Assembly: GCA_031268795.1 (NCBI GenBank)
Contig: JAIRWT010000010.1
Span: forward strand, 7,197-39,196
Direction of reading: 5' to 3'
Length of the DNA: 32,000 bases
From: Puniceicoccales bacterium
GTDB lineage: Bacteria; Verrucomicrobiota; Verrucomicrobiia; Opitutales; JAIRLM01
Shown here: positions 27,074 through 29,569 of the stretch, one piece after another
How positions within the stretch are numbered: the first letter of the stretch is position 1
Layout of the letters: every line of letters begins with the position of its first letter
The notes under the pieces: generated by a model
Database searches by the model: none
What the model was told of the DNA's origin: nothing
What the model saw: the letters and a program-made list of their open reading frames with translations, nothing else
Position numbers and translations under genes: made by a program

Positions 27074-29569
27074 TTATGACTTAACCGCAATAGGCCGTAA
27101 AAAACGCTGTGATTTAGTACATATGCCGTAGTTCCGGGCAGGACCATCCTTCCGGCCATGGGCCACTAAAATCATTGCATCATTCGGCACTTCATTGGGC
27201 GAAGTTTGAAGCATCAGTCCGGACGGCAAGATCACTGTCACATCCCTCATGTCAGTGAAACACACATAAACGGGGACTAGCGTAAATGCCGCTAGGAATG
27301 CAACGTCAAGCATGCCGCCACGTCGGCCCGGTTTCCTGGTAACTTCTTTCCCATATTCTGACACGCTTTGGGGGATAGCAACGGCCGCAAGTCCTTTCAC
27401 TTGCCTGGCGCGGTTCTCGTTTTCAAGATTGATTCGCGCCTGATTAAAAATTTCTTTCACACGGCTAGTAGTAGCAGCAGGCAGCAAGCAGTCATAAAGG
27501 CAATGGCGCACAACACACTGGGCCGTAAACTGCGCCTGGTCGCATAAACTTTCCTCACAAGCCTTTTCATCACAGGTTACACTATGTTGCAGGCGGATTT
27601 GCCCAGGCACTGATACGAACCTATCCTGAAACTGTCTGGTTACAACTGGTAGGTCCGTATGATTGTGCGCTAAAGTAGCCACACGCAAGACGAGATCCGG
27701 ATCGCGTTCCCCATTTACTACCGCATTTCCAAATGCGTTCAATGCGTCCAATAGCAAAACATCCAGCGCAAAGGCATTGCTCACAGCATTCTGCACCTGC
27801 TGTGATTCGTTCAGAAAAAGCATAAGCGCAATTGCGTTAAAAAGGCAATTAGCACTTTCCCTCACGGTAACTTGCAGGAATCCTAAGTCGCGTGTTAGCA
27901 CGGAATGTGCATCCGTTGCCCAATGCGGAATTTGCCCATGATAGGTTGACGACACCTGGTCTTCCCCGGCTGCGACAATGTCGCGCTGGCTAATTATTTG
28001 CAGGCCGAACAATGAAAGGTCACACGGCTGCACGGCTGTTACTGTTTCCGTTGCTGTGGGAACAACTTCGCCGGTAACGCTAACGACTGACACCGGCAAA
28101 ACCATGGTTGCTTCGCGCGGCATGGTGCTTCGACCAATATCTTTAGCTACCAGCCCAATAAAAAATTCACACAATTCTTTGTGTGACAGGCGTTTTCCGC
28201 CGGACCTTTCCGTTTCAACCATTGCGCCTATTCCCGCAGCGTAGCGCTGGCGCTCATCCACGGAAAGACATTTTTCCGCCACTTCAGAAACGGACACCTG
28301 CGTCCCCGCGGCGCGTGCTCTTGCAGCAAACAAGGCAAAAACAATACGAAGAATTCCGCAATTTCGCACGCAAATATTTGCCATCTCAATCCCGGTCACC
28401 ACGATGACATCACCTTGAAGTCTTTCTGCAATAGCGAGGGCAGCGTCTCGTGGCAATAGCGTGCGAAAAGCATGCGCAAACATCTGCACAGCACCATTGC
28501 CATCAGTTTCCCTTTCTTCGAACGCTAAGTCGGTCAGAGCGATAGGAATTTCCATATTTGAAATTCCGACGGAACGCGCAATGCGGCTAAACTCAAGCGT
28601 GACAGCTAGATTGCTGGGGTGCTCAATGCGGGATAGTGAGCCTTGCGCCTCCCGCAATGAATGCGGGCATAATCGTCCCCCCGCGTACCTAAGGACTGTA
28701 TGCAGGTTATACTCCATGAAATCAGGAAAATTTATTCCGCGATAGACACAATATCGCGCATCGTTTGGCGCAGTCCATACATCAGGTCGTATGCCTGAAA
28801 GATGTAGAAACTGGTAGCCTAAAGTCAAATAATTGGCTGTGTTCAGTCGGCGCCCGTCCGGTGTCACGAAAAGATCCGCATTTGAGGCAAAATAGAAATC
28901 TGCCCACATAAGGGAATATGATATTTGCAATAAGTCTCCCTGTATGTGTTCGGCCAATAGGATCGTTGCCGGGTTGCGGGCAAACTGTTCCGCAATGGAA
29001 TTAACATTGTCCGTAGTAATATCGCCAAACAATTCCATCACAAATGAATTGGTGAGGTGGTCGTATTCATGGGACGCAATTCTTTCACGCCGTTCATCAC
29101 CCATCTCCCCCCATGAGCTAATAATTGCTTGCAAATTTCCGTTTGCAGTTCCGCCCCTATTATGGGCGTAGTACTCCATGTCCGGAGCCGATTGCGGCAT
29201 CGGTACGAATTGGGGTAACAAATTTCCGAGTGTCCTTGGAATGCTGACATGGGGTGAACCACGATGAAGCGACCCCATAATTGCCACTTGCAGCGCCAGT
29301 ATGGGGAGGCATTCACTGGGAAAACTCAAAAAAGCTGCCCCTTGCGTTTGACGCGCATGACTAACAGCGCAACCTAACACTTCGGTCGCTATGTCCCAAA
29401 AGACTTGTGTAATAGGGTTGCCAATCTTCCGAAAACTCGCCACATACTGGTTTGCTCCTTCGTTCTTGGTCAATTCGATGGACCATCCGTCCCGGTTAAC
29501 CCTAAAAAGAGAAGTTAATTTCATTCCCATGACTGGATCGACTATGACTATCGCCACTAATGTCGACAT
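27074..29569 (-). CDS. Large orphan protein with a C-terminal OTU-like cysteine protease (putative deubiquitinase) domain
   Basis: 831-aa ORF. Residues of about 555-815 (nt 27125-27907) match the OTU layout. The Cys motif is VTVRESANCLFNAIALML (Cys575). The variable-loop block is EYGKEVTRKPGRRGGMLDVAFLAAFTLVPVYVC, comparable to the OTU consensus WGG-x-x-E-L-x-A-L-A. The His motif is AMILVAHG...NYG (His804). I recognise nothing in the N-terminal roughly 550 aa. Confidence 0.65.
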   Translation of the reverse strand: MSTLVAIVIVDPVMGMKLTSLFRVNRDGWSIELTKNEGANQYVASFRKIGNPITQVFWDIATEVLGCAVSHARQTQGAAFLSFPSECLPILALQVAIMGSLHRGSPHVSIPRTLGNLLPQFVPMPQSAPDMEYYAHNRGGTANGNLQAIISSWGEMGDERRERIASHEYDHLTNSFVMELFGDITTDNVNSIAEQFARNPATILLAEHIQGDLLQISYSLMWADFYFASNADLFVTPDGRRLNTANYLTLGYQFLHLSGIRPDVWTAPNDARYCVYRGINFPDFMEYNLHTVLRYAGGRLCPHSLREAQGSLSRIEHPSNLAVTLEFSRIARSVGISNMEIPIALTDLAFEERETDGNGAVQMFAHAFRTLLPRDAALAIAERLQGDVIVVTGIEMANICVRNCGILRIVFALFAARARAAGTQVSVSEVAEKCLSVDERQRYAAGIGAMVETERSGGKRLSHKELCEFFIGLVAKDIGRSTMPREATMVLPVSVVSVTGEVVPTATETVTAVQPCDLSLFGLQIISQRDIVAAGEDQVSSTYHGQIPHWATDAHSVLTRDLGFLQVTVRESANCLFNAIALMLFLNESQQVQNAVSNAFALDVLLLDALNAFGNAVVNGERDPDLVLRVATLAHNHTDLPVVTRQFQDRFVSVPGQIRLQHSVTCDEKACEESLCDQAQFTAQCVVRHCLYDCLLPAATTSRVKEIFNQARINLENENRARQVKGLAAVAIPQSVSEYGKEVTRKPGRRGGMLDVAFLAAFTLVPVYVCFTDMRDVTVILPSGLMLQTSPNEVPNDAMILVAHGRKDGPARNYGICTKSQRFLRPIAVKS

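What the first reader, a model, noticed from the sequence alone, without database searches (positions are those of the whole stretch)
27074..29569. 831-aa protein with a C-terminal OTU-type deubiquitinase signature
Three blocks match the OTU fold in the correct order. The first is a strand followed by ESANCLFNAIALML, comparable to the consensus DGNCLFRAL with the nucleophile Cys575 at nt 27845-27847. The second is EYGKEVTRKPGRRGGMLDVAFLAAFTLVPVYVC, comparable to the consensus Y...M.k.g.WGG..EL.ALA..l..pI.V. The third is AMILVAHG-x8-NYG, comparable to the consensus i.L.y...HYd with His804. Bacteria have no ubiquitin system, so bacterial OTUs such as ChlaOTU and the Legionella Lot proteins are host-directed effectors. 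The Asp usually found 3 residues before the Cys is replaced (E-S-A-N-C), and the insert between the Cys and WGG blocks, about 145 aa, is unusually long. This points to a divergent subtype. The N-terminal 550 aa have no recognisable fold and could be a novel targeting or second catalytic module.
Basis: partly seen in the sequence, partly recalled or inferred. Interest (0 to 1): 0.75.

Follow-up and report, generated by a model that had tools for sequence, protein, structure and literature searches.

The report
Degenerate OTU-fold protein, termite-gut bacterium
A large orphan protein from a termite-gut verrucomicrobial genome ends in a domain with the fold of OTU ubiquitin-removing enzymes. It has lost two of the three catalytic residues, so it is probably an inactive sister copy of an enzyme that the same genome also keeps intact.

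Summary
Direct searches give no OTU hit (Pfam, NCBIfam, PDB). An exhaustive HMMER scan finds five relatives, all in termite-gut Puniceicoccales MAGs. Three of them carry textbook OTU motifs: R-G/C-D-G/N-N-C-L-F-N, then G-x-W/F-G-E, then H-W-D.

An AlphaFold model of aa 541-831 built on that alignment (pLDDT 77, pTM 0.79) matches OTU deubiquitinases in its first 45 PDB hits, otubains best at E 3e-4. The C-terminal domain is therefore an OTU-fold homologue with a 173-aa helical lobe.

The window's copy is degenerate. Cys575 is kept, but the H-W-D general-base motif reads N813-Y-G815 and the Cys-loop Asp is S572. The same genome holds an intact paralogue (LBI34_01980) and a split, Cys-less one (LBI34_00600/00605).

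Best reading: a catalytically impaired pseudo-OTU paralogue of a lineage-specific family that is probably directed at a eukaryotic host. Activity through a relocated His is not excluded.

The parts
27074..29569 (-). 831-aa ORF including the stop codon. It equals MAG protein LBI34_02675 (Puniceicoccales bacterium). The true start is possibly Met14 or Met16.
   Evidence: ORF; 100% self-hit carrying that name. The relatives' N-termini align from aa 14-17 onward. GC, GC3 and codon usage resemble the neighbouring housekeeping genes.
28478..29530 (-). Family-specific N-terminal domain (aa ~14-364) of unknown fold, with a conserved GW motif at aa 28-29. Probably a non-catalytic scaffold or targeting module.
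   Evidence: phmmer E 5.9e-20 to LBI34_00600 over aa 17-359. It also aligns to the N-termini of P0004 and P0005. No Pfam or PDB match. The invariant columns are only G/W/P/L/Y/F.
27950..28477 (-). Poorly conserved middle region or linker (aa 365-540).
   Evidence: Mostly gaps and low conservation in alignment A3. No family hit.
27077..27949 (-). C-terminal OTU-fold domain (aa 541-831) with an extended helical lobe.
   Evidence: AF2 with a 5-sequence alignment gives pLDDT 77.2 and pTM 0.79. Foldseek PDB ranks 1-45 are all OTU DUBs; the best is OTUB1 2zfy at E 2.8e-4, probability 1.0. phmmer links to P0003 (2e-13), P0004 (5.6e-7), P0005 (2.8e-5) and P0006 (6.5e-4).
27839..27862 (-). Cys loop R570-E-S-A-N-C575-L-F577. 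The nucleophile Cys is retained and the Cys-loop Asp (-3) is replaced by Ser572.
   Evidence: Aligns to R-G-D-G-N-C-L-F / R-G/C-D-N-N-C-L-F of the intact relatives. In the model, Cys575 is the first residue of helix 35-46, after strand 25-28.
27305..27340 (-). Variable-loop block T744-RKPG-RRG-GML-D755, the counterpart of the OTU 'WGG..E' loop.
   Evidence: T744, G748, G751 and D755 are invariant in all five family members. The same block of the family profile aligns to the WGG loop of yeast OTU1 (3by4), but only at E 0.68.
27116..27178 (-). Strand, His-loop and strand (aa 798-818: AMILVAH804-GRKDGPAR-N813YG815ICT). The canonical H-omega-D general-base motif is replaced by N-Y-G (nt 27125-27133). 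His804 (nt 27158-27160) lies at the end of the preceding strand.
   Evidence: alignment; same spacing as the relatives, no gaps. (strands 259-264 and 273-278 of the model). The definition of the motif is from PMC7396840.

Best explanation
The gene encodes a divergent paralogue of a small three-part protein family: an N-terminal family-specific domain, a variable linker and a C-terminal OTU-fold domain. So far the family is seen only in Puniceicoccales (Verrucomicrobiota) MAGs, and the two relatives whose origin could be traced come from hindguts of dry-wood termites.

The C-terminal domain has the otubain-like version of the OTU cysteine-protease fold, with a 163-196-aa helical lobe. The intact members are LBI34_01980 in the same genome, LBB26_00205 and LBF26_00005. 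They carry the full D-x-N-C ... H-W-D catalytic apparatus. They are inferred to be deubiquitinases or Ubl proteases that act on a eukaryotic host's ubiquitin system, most plausibly that of a gut flagellate.

The window's copy keeps the fold, the nucleophile Cys575 and the variable-loop glycines. It has lost the general-base His (N813), the acidic residue (G815) and the Cys-loop Asp (S572). It is therefore most likely catalytically dead or severely impaired as an isopeptidase. It would be a pseudo-OTU that, if it still has a function, works by binding (ubiquitin, an E2~Ub, or a substrate) rather than by cleaving.

Shown: the homology, the fold, the residue substitutions and the paralogue set. 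Inferred: inactivity, ubiquitin as the ligand, host delivery.
For: - Family and motifs: an exhaustive phmmer scan of 1.84 billion representatives gives only 5 relatives. All are annotated as Puniceicoccales MAG proteins, and three of them are from the same MAG as the window. P0004, P0005 and P0006 show RGDGNCLFN / RG(C)DNNCLFN, G(K/Q)(F/W)GE and HWD.
- Fold: AF2 pLDDT 77.2, pTM 0.79. Foldseek PDB ranks 1-45 are all OTU DUBs, otubains first (E 2.8e-4, probability 1.0). The best Pfam family for the C-terminal domain of P0004 is OTU (17.7 bits, E 0.0054, below the cut-off), followed further down the list by a faint Otubain C65 hit. The only PDB hit of the five-member family profile is yeast OTU1.
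- Residue mapping: C575=Cys, N813=His, Y814=Trp, G815=Asp, S572=Asp(-3), H804=invariant Asn. This is identical in the default MAFFT run, in three further MAFFT modes and in BLASTP.
- Precedent: in bacterial OTUs, His-to-Ala abolished activity in every case tested. ChlaOTU, the one member without a recognisable His motif, showed no in-vitro activity under any condition (PMC7396840). OTUB1 has a well-described non-catalytic mode of inhibiting E2~Ub, and pseudo-DUBs are a recognised class (PMC10919355).
- The closest relative (LBI34_00605) shares the loss of H-W-D (L-F-G) and has also lost the Cys, so the loss of His predates that duplication.
- Provenance: the related MAGs Cc175_bin47 and Nm470_bin100 come from Cryptotermes cavifrons and Neotermes meruensis hindguts. 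MreB is 94% identical to that of Cc175_bin47.
- No E1, E2 or Ubl gene lies next to any member, and there is no defence-system hit.
Against: - No sequence profile reaches significance for the query itself. The OTU call rests on an AF2 model made with only five sequences, and on Foldseek matches with low TM-scores (0.38-0.49) and rmsd around 12 A.
- Cys575 and the NCLFNA motif are still intact. That retention is unexplained if catalysis is gone.
- His804 lies at the end of the strand that precedes the N813 strand in the sequence, so it could lie near the active site. The distance could not be measured.
- Ubiquitin binding, secretion and the identity of any host are untested. No secretion-system gene or signal was seen in the window.
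- There is no orthologue of this particular copy, so selection on it cannot be measured.
Confidence: 0.6

Rival explanations
1. It is an active, non-canonical OTU deubiquitinase. Cys575 would be activated by His804, a general base relocated from the start of the His strand to the end of the neighbouring strand. An acidic third residue would be absent or recruited from elsewhere.
For: Cys575 and the surrounding N-C-L-F-N-A are retained. In the model His804 ends strand 259-264 and N813 starts strand 273-278, the next strand along the sequence, so the two could be cross-strand neighbours (this is an inference, not a measured distance). In OTUs the acidic residue can be dispensable or placed elsewhere, as in the A20 subfamily (PMC7396840).
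Against: His804 aligns with an invariant Asn (N-N-G) of the intact relatives and with Tyr in the closest paralogue, so it is not a conserved feature. No OTU with a His at that position is described in the papers read. The one bacterial OTU lacking the His motif was inactive in vitro. The Cys-loop Asp is also lost.
Confidence: 0.15
2. It is a decaying duplicate with no remaining function: a gene on its way to becoming a pseudogene in a host-associated genome, and its conserved blocks merely reflect the ancestral fold.
For: Three of the four catalytic or Cys-loop residues are substituted. The sister paralogue in the same genome is split into two ORFs (366 + 428/465 aa) and has lost the Cys as well. 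No orthologue exists in 15 billion proteins.
Against: An uninterrupted 831-codon frame at 49.6% GC is not expected from a neutrally drifting sequence. The copy has diverged to about 24% identity from its paralogues, yet the hydrophobic core and loop glycines are kept and AF2 still folds it confidently. Codon usage is native-like.
Confidence: 0.15
3. The family does not act on a eukaryotic host. Instead it acts inside the bacterium, either on a bacterial ubiquitin-like conjugation system (Bil/Bub-type) or as a general papain-like peptidase.
For: No secretion signal or secretion-system gene was seen. Family members sit among housekeeping genes: RNase G, tRNAs and Der in the window, and atpD/atpC in L001 and L002.
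Against: No E1, E2, Ubl or JAB gene lies near any of the three loci examined, and there are no PADLOC hits. The closest structures are eukaryotic otubains. The family is confined to gut MAGs of flagellate-bearing termites.
Confidence: 0.05
4. The OTU resemblance is a chance or modelling artefact, and the domain belongs to another fold.
For: Pfam, NCBIfam and PDB sequence searches are negative for the query. Foldseek TM-scores are below 0.5. The MSA has only five rows.
Against: The first 45 Foldseek hits are exclusively OTUs, and the first non-OTU hit has probability 0.05. The paralogues carry all three OTU motifs in the right order and on the right secondary-structure elements. OTU is the best Pfam family for two relatives. 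A bona fide metagenomic OTU that passes Pfam's cut-off also gets only E 0.6 against PDB OTUs, so weak sequence scores are normal in this family.
Confidence: 0.03

Closest known systems
Otubains (OTUB1/OTUB2, MEROPS C65, Pfam PF10275)
   Same: They are the best structural matches: 2zfy at E 2.8e-4, followed by rice OTUB-like, C. elegans OTUB1 and OTUB2. They have the OTU core with an enlarged helical lobe and the C...H-omega-D order in the intact relatives. OTUB1 also has a non-catalytic mode of binding E2~Ub (PMC10919355), which is a possible model for a Cys-only copy.
   Different: There is no PF10275 hit for the query, and only E 0.34 for P0004. The helical lobe is 173 aa against 110-120 aa. 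The query lacks His and Asp. It carries a 540-aa N-terminal extension with its own conserved domain. It is bacterial.
Legionella LOT-class OTU deubiquitinases (LotA, LotB/Ceg23, LotC)
   Same: [quoted passage not shown] They are multi-domain effectors of an intracellular bacterium.
   Different: Structural similarity is weak (LotA 7uyh at E 0.57) and sequence hits are limited to the Cys loop (7uyg E 0.51). LOT enzymes have a complete triad. Dot/Icm delivery has no known counterpart here.
ChlaOTU (Chlamydia pneumoniae CPn_0483)
   Same: It is a bacterial OTU from the PVC superphylum with a recognisable Cys motif but no recognisable general-base His motif. It was inactive in vitro under all conditions tested (PMC7396840).
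   Different: No detectable sequence relationship was found here. ChlaOTU is a documented type III secretion effector, whereas secretion is unknown for this protein.
Pseudo-deubiquitinases (catalytically inactive DUB-fold proteins)
   Same: They keep a DUB fold but lack catalytic residues, and they co-exist with active paralogues. Their known roles are as scaffolds or allosteric partners (PMC10919355).
   Different: The examples in that review are eukaryotic. No bacterial pseudo-OTU came up in the papers read here. This copy still keeps the nucleophile.

Membership tests
OTU cysteine proteases (Pfam PF02338; clan CA) | Sequence match to the OTU profile at Pfam's gathering score (23.3 bits) | tested here: not met
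   No PF02338 hit at E<=10 for the 831-aa protein or for aa 551-831. The best relative, the C-terminal domain of P0004, scores 17.7 bits at E 0.0054. P0006 scores E 0.13.
OTU cysteine proteases (Pfam PF02338; clan CA) | OTU fold: the Cys lies at the N-terminus of a helix after a strand, followed by a helical lobe and a C-terminal beta-sheet that carries the His strand | tested here: met
   The AF2 model of aa 541-831 has pLDDT 77.2 and pTM 0.79. Its elements run strand 25-28, helix 35-46, helices, then five C-terminal strands. Foldseek PDB ranks 1-45 are all OTU DUBs, best E 2.8e-4 at probability 1.0, with TM-scores of only 0.38-0.49.
OTU cysteine proteases (Pfam PF02338; clan CA) | Catalytic Cys within the D-G/x-N-C-L-F Cys loop | tested here: met
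   Cys575 aligns with the Cys of RGDGNCLF / RGDNNCLF. However, the loop Asp (-3) is Ser572.
OTU cysteine proteases (Pfam PF02338; clan CA) | General-base His in an H-omega-D/N/E motif at the start of a beta-strand (PMC7396840) | tested here: not met
   The H-W-D of P0004, P0005 and P0006 aligns with N813-Y814-G815 in four MAFFT runs and with identical spacing in BLASTP. His804 aligns with an invariant Asn.
OTU cysteine proteases (Pfam PF02338; clan CA) | Cys and His side chains juxtaposed in three dimensions | not testable with these tools
   The tools return no model coordinates, only DSSP and pLDDT.
OTU cysteine proteases (Pfam PF02338; clan CA) | Isopeptidase activity on ubiquitin or Ubl substrates | not testable with these tools
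   This needs Ub-PA, Ub-AMC and diubiquitin panel assays.
Otubain subfamily (Peptidase C65, PF10275) | Profile match to PF10275 | tested here: not met
   No hit for the query. P0004 scores E 0.34 and 10.8 bits against a 24.3-bit cut-off. Otubains are nevertheless the best structural neighbours.
LOT-class bacterial OTUs | [quoted passage not shown] | tested here: inconclusive
   The query has 173 aa and the family 163-196 aa, against 178-210 aa for LotA, LotB and LotC. The length fits, but fold similarity to LotA is weak (E 0.57).
DUB component of bacterial ubiquitin-like conjugation or defence operons (Bil/Bub-type) | Neighbouring E1, E2 and Ubl genes | tested here: not met
   The window neighbours are RodA, RNase G, two tRNAs, an orphan membrane protein and Der. 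In L001 and L002 the neighbours are a tail-specific protease, atpD/atpC, NusA and IF-2. No PADLOC hit.
Secreted host-directed effector | Secretion signal or system, and translocation into a eukaryotic cell | not tested
   No Sec-type signal peptide is evident by eye. Only one hydrophobic stretch lies at aa 3-22, upstream of the probable true start. No secretion-system gene is present in the window.

The most novel reading that the evidence does not exclude
The Puniceicoccales family is a previously undescribed class of otubain-like OTU effectors from protist-associated Verrucomicrobia, possibly of the 'Nucleococcus cluster'. On this reading the window's copy is not debris but a selected derivative. 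It could be a ubiquitin- or E2~Ub-binding pseudo-DUB that blocks host ubiquitination non-catalytically, as OTUB1 does. Alternatively it could be an enzyme whose general base has migrated to His804. Together with the four Inc-like membrane proteins in the same 32 kb, this would point to a chlamydia-style effector repertoire in a verrucomicrobial symbiont.
Probability: 0.2. Interest if true: 0.65.

Novelty: new variant of a known kind. Interest (0 to 1): 0.4.

Why it matters
Bacterial OTU deubiquitinases are known from a handful of intracellular pathogens and symbionts: Chlamydia, Legionella, Wolbachia, Rickettsia and Simkania. A lineage-restricted OTU-fold family in termite-gut Verrucomicrobia would extend this strategy to a further bacterial phylum and probably to protist hosts. 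The family is invisible to Pfam and has intact, Cys-only and split copies within one genome.

The paralogue set offers a natural series for asking how a DUB effector turns into a pseudoenzyme, and whether such copies are retained as ubiquitin binders. For this particular gene the practical message is a caution. The Cys motif alone is misleading. The copy to test for DUB activity is LBI34_01980, with the window's gene as its degenerate comparator.

Tried and rejected
- Direct profile and sequence searches of the query (Pfam, NCBIfam, PDB, PADLOC, plasmids, phages) gave nothing.
- The word-indexed homologue search found only the protein itself. A second run with the family alignment returned nothing at all, so that search was wasted.
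- The single-sequence AF2 model of all 831 aa was useless at pLDDT 34.
- Profile-versus-PDB searches gave no significant hit (best E 0.028). With the five-member alignment the only hit was OTU1 at E 0.68. With the intact-only alignment the hits were LotA at E 0.51, a viral OTU at E 1.2, and a probably spurious UFL1 helix match at E 0.028.
- The N-terminal domain profile matched nothing meaningful in the PDB.
- I tried to collect OTU sequences for a profile-profile test from a bona fide metagenomic OTU (L003). This only showed that true OTUs also score about E 0.6 against PDB OTUs.
- The contigs carrying the paralogues could not be fetched, so the split of LBI34_00600/00605 could not be examined at the DNA level.
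- Genomic-island idea (tRNA-adjacent insertion): composition is native-like. The 16-nt direct repeat flanking the ORF is within chance expectation (own estimate of about 2.5 exact 11-mer pairs in 4.5 kb), so the idea was rejected.
- Bil/Bub-type operon idea: rejected for lack of E1, E2 or Ubl neighbours.
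Full report
**1. Observation**

The window has an uninterrupted 831-codon ORF on the minus strand at 27074-29569. Cys575 is nt 27845-27847 and His804 is nt 27158-27160. The protein is identical to 'MAG: hypothetical protein LBI34_02675 [Puniceicoccales bacterium]'. 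Its GC (0.496), GC3 (0.481) and codon usage are like those of the surrounding housekeeping genes, so it is a resident gene. It has no match in plasmid or phage collections.

**2. Direct tests of the OTU idea fail at the sequence level**

- hmmscan against Pfam at E<=10 gives no PF02338 hit for the full protein or for aa 551-831. HMMER's filters drop most matches above about E 0.1, so this is not a complete list of weak hits.
- NCBIfam and PADLOC give nothing.
- phmmer against all PDB chains gives nothing.
- A single-sequence AlphaFold model was uninformative at pLDDT 34.

OTU domains are notoriously divergent, however. A bona fide OTU picked up by chance from a metagenome (L003) passes Pfam's cut-off at 26.9 bits, yet scores only E 0.6 against PDB OTUs.

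**3. Relatives**

The word-indexed search found only the protein itself. An exhaustive phmmer scan of 1.84 billion cluster representatives found five relatives.

| Protein | Length | Region of the query matched | E-value |
|---|---|---|---|
| P0002 | 366 aa | aa 17-359 | 5.9e-20 |
| P0003 | 428 aa | C-terminus | 2e-13 |
| P0004 | 919 aa | C-terminus | 5.6e-7 |
| P0005 | 885 aa | C-terminus | 2.8e-5 |
| P0006 | 499 aa (partial) | C-terminus | 6.5e-4 |

All are Puniceicoccales MAG proteins.
- P0002 and P0003 are the adjacent genes LBI34_00600 and LBI34_00605 of the same MAG as the window. They form a paralogue split in two.
- P0004 is LBI34_01980, also from the same MAG.
- P0005 is LBB26_00205 from MAG Nm470_bin100.
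- P0006 is LBF26_00005 from MAG Cc175_bin47.

The accessions of the latter two MAGs fall within the range deposited by Mies et al. 2024 (PMC11257099). That paper's Table S1 identifies Nm470 as Neotermes meruensis hindgut and Cc175 as Cryptotermes cavifrons hindgut, both flagellate-bearing Kalotermitidae. The window's MreB is 94% identical to that of Cc175_bin47. The window's organism is therefore a close relative and very probably from the same kind of sample, which is an inference. Scans of genome and metagenome contig collections added no further members.

**4. The relatives reveal the signature**

P0004, P0005 and P0006 read RIHARGDGNCLFNA / RIHVRGDNNCLFNG / RIHARCDNNCLFNA. Next come G(K/Q)(F/W)GE..D.(A/I)..A....P(I/V)YV. 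They end with (A/T/S)HWD(L/V)(Y/C). These are the OTU Cys loop, variable loop and H-omega-D general-base motif as defined by Schubert et al. 2020 (PMC7396840). For the C-terminal domain of P0004 the top Pfam family is OTU (17.7 bits, E 0.0054, below the 23.3-bit cut-off), with a faint Otubain C65 hit. For P0006 the top family is again OTU. The only PDB hit of the five-member family profile is yeast OTU1, with the Cys loop and the WGG loop aligned in order (E 0.68).

**5. Fold**

AlphaFold2 run on aa 541-831 with the five-sequence alignment gave pLDDT 77.2 and pTM 0.79. Cys575 is the first residue of a helix that follows a short strand. A long all-helical lobe follows, and the domain ends in five strands. 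Foldseek against the PDB returned OTU deubiquitinases at ranks 1-45:
- OTUB1 2zfy at E 2.8e-4 and probability 1.0;
- rice OTUB-like, C. elegans OTUB1 and OTUB2;
- viral OTUs, DUBA, Cezanne, OTUD2/3, A20, LotA, Otu1/2 and wMelOTU.

**6. The catalytic apparatus of the window's copy is incomplete**

The default MAFFT alignment, three further MAFFT modes and a BLASTP alignment to P0004 all agree. The BLASTP alignment has E 3e-10 and is free of gaps across the His-loop, with the same 7-residue spacing after the conserved Gly.

| Query residue | Aligns with, in the intact members |
|---|---|
| Cys575 | the nucleophile Cys |
| Ser572 | the Cys-loop Asp |
| Asn813 | the general-base His |
| Tyr814 | the aromatic residue (Trp) |
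| Gly815 | the acidic residue (Asp) |
| His804 | the second Asn of an invariant N-N-G |

His804 aligns with Tyr in P0003. NYG is the H-Y-D position, and it lacks both His and Asp. The closest paralogue, P0003, shares the loss (L-F-G) and has Asn at the Cys position as well. The His/Asp loss therefore predates the duplication that separated these two copies.

Schubert et al. report that His-to-Ala abolished activity in every bacterial OTU tested. They also report that ChlaOTU, the one member with no recognisable His motif, showed no activity in any assay.

**7. Architecture**

The lobe between the Cys and the variable loop is 173 aa here and 163-196 aa across the family. Shin et al. 2020 (PMC7690952) give 50-60 aa for classical OTUs, 110-120 aa for otubains and 178-210 aa for the Legionella LOT class. 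The 'unusually long insert' therefore has precedent.

Residues ~14-364 form a second conserved module shared with P0002, P0004 and P0005. It has no Pfam or PDB match. Its invariant columns are only Gly, Trp, Pro, Leu, Tyr and Phe. That argues for a scaffold or targeting domain rather than a second enzyme, though the alignment is thin at four sequences and about 20% identity. The alignment suggests the true start is Met14 or Met16. The middle part (aa 365-540) is poorly conserved.

**8. Context**

The neighbours are:
- RodA (23604-24815) and RNase G (24842-26509);
- tRNA-Arg(ACG) and tRNA-Ala(GGC) (26613-26771);
- an orphan 386-aa membrane protein (29698-30858);
- Der (31005-31934).

The intact orthologues in L001 and L002 lie next to atpD/atpC. 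No E1, E2, Ubl or JAB genes and no defence-system hits occur at any locus. A Bil/Bub-type bacterial ubiquitin-like system is therefore not supported. No secretion-system genes are in the window, and the rest of the MAG could not be retrieved.

**9. Interpretation**

- Shown: an OTU-fold C-terminal domain; membership of a tiny family restricted to Puniceicoccales MAGs; retention of Cys575; loss of the canonical His, the acidic residue and the loop Asp; co-existence in one genome of an intact copy, this Cys-only copy and a split Cys-less copy.
- Inferred: the intact copies are host-directed deubiquitinases or Ubl proteases. This rests on bacteria lacking ubiquitin, on the precedent of bacterial OTU effectors, and on the provenance from guts of flagellate-bearing termites. 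Verrucomicrobia of the 'Nucleococcus cluster' are nuclear or cytoplasmic symbionts of such protists (PMC8204192).
- Inferred: the window's copy is catalytically impaired and acts, if at all, by binding. The non-catalytic E2~Ub inhibition by OTUB1 and eukaryotic pseudo-DUBs are the models (PMC10919355).

The main rivals are an active enzyme using His804 (about 0.15) and a functionless decaying duplicate (about 0.15). His804 is at the end of the strand that precedes the N813 strand, and no coordinates were available to measure the distance. Against the decaying-duplicate reading, the intact 831-codon frame and the preserved core argue for retention.

**10. Verdict**

Its headline (an OTU-type domain) is right. 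Its mechanistic reading (a Cys575/His804 deubiquitinase of a new subtype) is probably wrong.

Novelty: a new variant of a known kind, namely a degenerate otubain/LOT-like OTU paralogue with a novel N-terminal domain, from a phylum in which I know of no described OTU effectors (from my own knowledge, not a systematic literature check). Interest is moderate at 0.4. The gene itself is probably a dead enzyme, but the paralogue series and its genomic company are worth a specialist's look.

Noticed in passing
window 29698-30858(-), 4670-6886(+), 9939-11741(+), 17323-18777(-): Four further orphan ORFs (386, 738, 600 and 484 aa) have no Pfam hit. The 386-aa and 484-aa ones also have no PDB sequence hit, and the 386-aa one no NCBIfam or PADLOC hit. 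Each has a hydrophilic N-terminus of 30-60 aa followed by a 50-80-aa hydrophobic block of 2-3 closely packed transmembrane helices (aa 63-117, 43-122, 32-81, 32-87). This architecture is reminiscent of chlamydial Inc proteins. The 484-aa one has a weak LRR_4 hit (E 0.0013). The 386-aa one, directly upstream of the OTU-like gene, has no homologue in 5.8 billion proteins.
   Followed up: partly
window 27003-27033 and 29659-29698: The 3' flanks of the OTU-like gene and of the neighbouring 386-aa orphan share two short motifs found nowhere else in the window. One is AATCGCC(R)GGATGGC, a small hairpin. The other is the palindrome AATCTGAGATT. They occur in swapped order. They could be a shared terminator or regulatory module, or chance.
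   Followed up: partly
same MAG, other contigs (proteins P0002/P0003/P0007 = LBI34_00600/00605; P0004 = LBI34_01980): The sister paralogue is split into two adjacent ORFs of 366 aa and 428 aa (465 aa in the JGI call), together about the length of the window protein. It has Asn at the Cys position. A third paralogue of 919 aa keeps the full Cys/His/Asp triad and is the better candidate for an active deubiquitinase.
   Followed up: partly
L001 8153-10861 and L002 151-1500: The intact orthologues in MAGs Nm470_bin100 and Cc175_bin47 both lie next to genes of ATP synthase beta/epsilon size. These were confirmed as atpD/atpC by Pfam only in L001. L001 also has two more large ORFs without Pfam hits (668 and 696 aa) upstream.
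   Followed up: partly
family alignment A2, profile positions 121-184 (helical lobe of P0004/P0005/P0006): The helical lobe of the intact relatives shows a weak local similarity to the winged-helix region of the UFM1 E3 ligase UFL1 (8b9x, E 0.028; motif el..f.LP..l..ALt..L..i.G.I..dN). This is probably chance. The motif reads as less similar in the window protein (by eye).
   Followed up: no
window 29524-29569: The annotated start (Met1) adds 13-15 hydrophobic residues (MSTLVAIVIVDPV) that have no counterpart in any relative. Met14 or Met16 is the more likely start. No clear Shine-Dalgarno sequence precedes any of the three.
   Followed up: partly
window 19242-20756(-): A [FeFe]-hydrogenase large-subunit-like gene with ferredoxin-type clusters, consistent with an anaerobic gut lifestyle. 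LpxB, MurG, RodA and MreB are present, so the cell envelope is not reduced.
   Followed up: no
L003 2631-6029: An unrelated 1132-aa lysine-rich protein on metagenome contig Ga0257110_1000758 carries a bona fide OTU domain (PF02338, 26.9 bits; RGDGNCLFHAI ... VHFE) followed by a (VAT)n repeat. It was picked up only through the shared Cys-loop pattern.
   Followed up: partly
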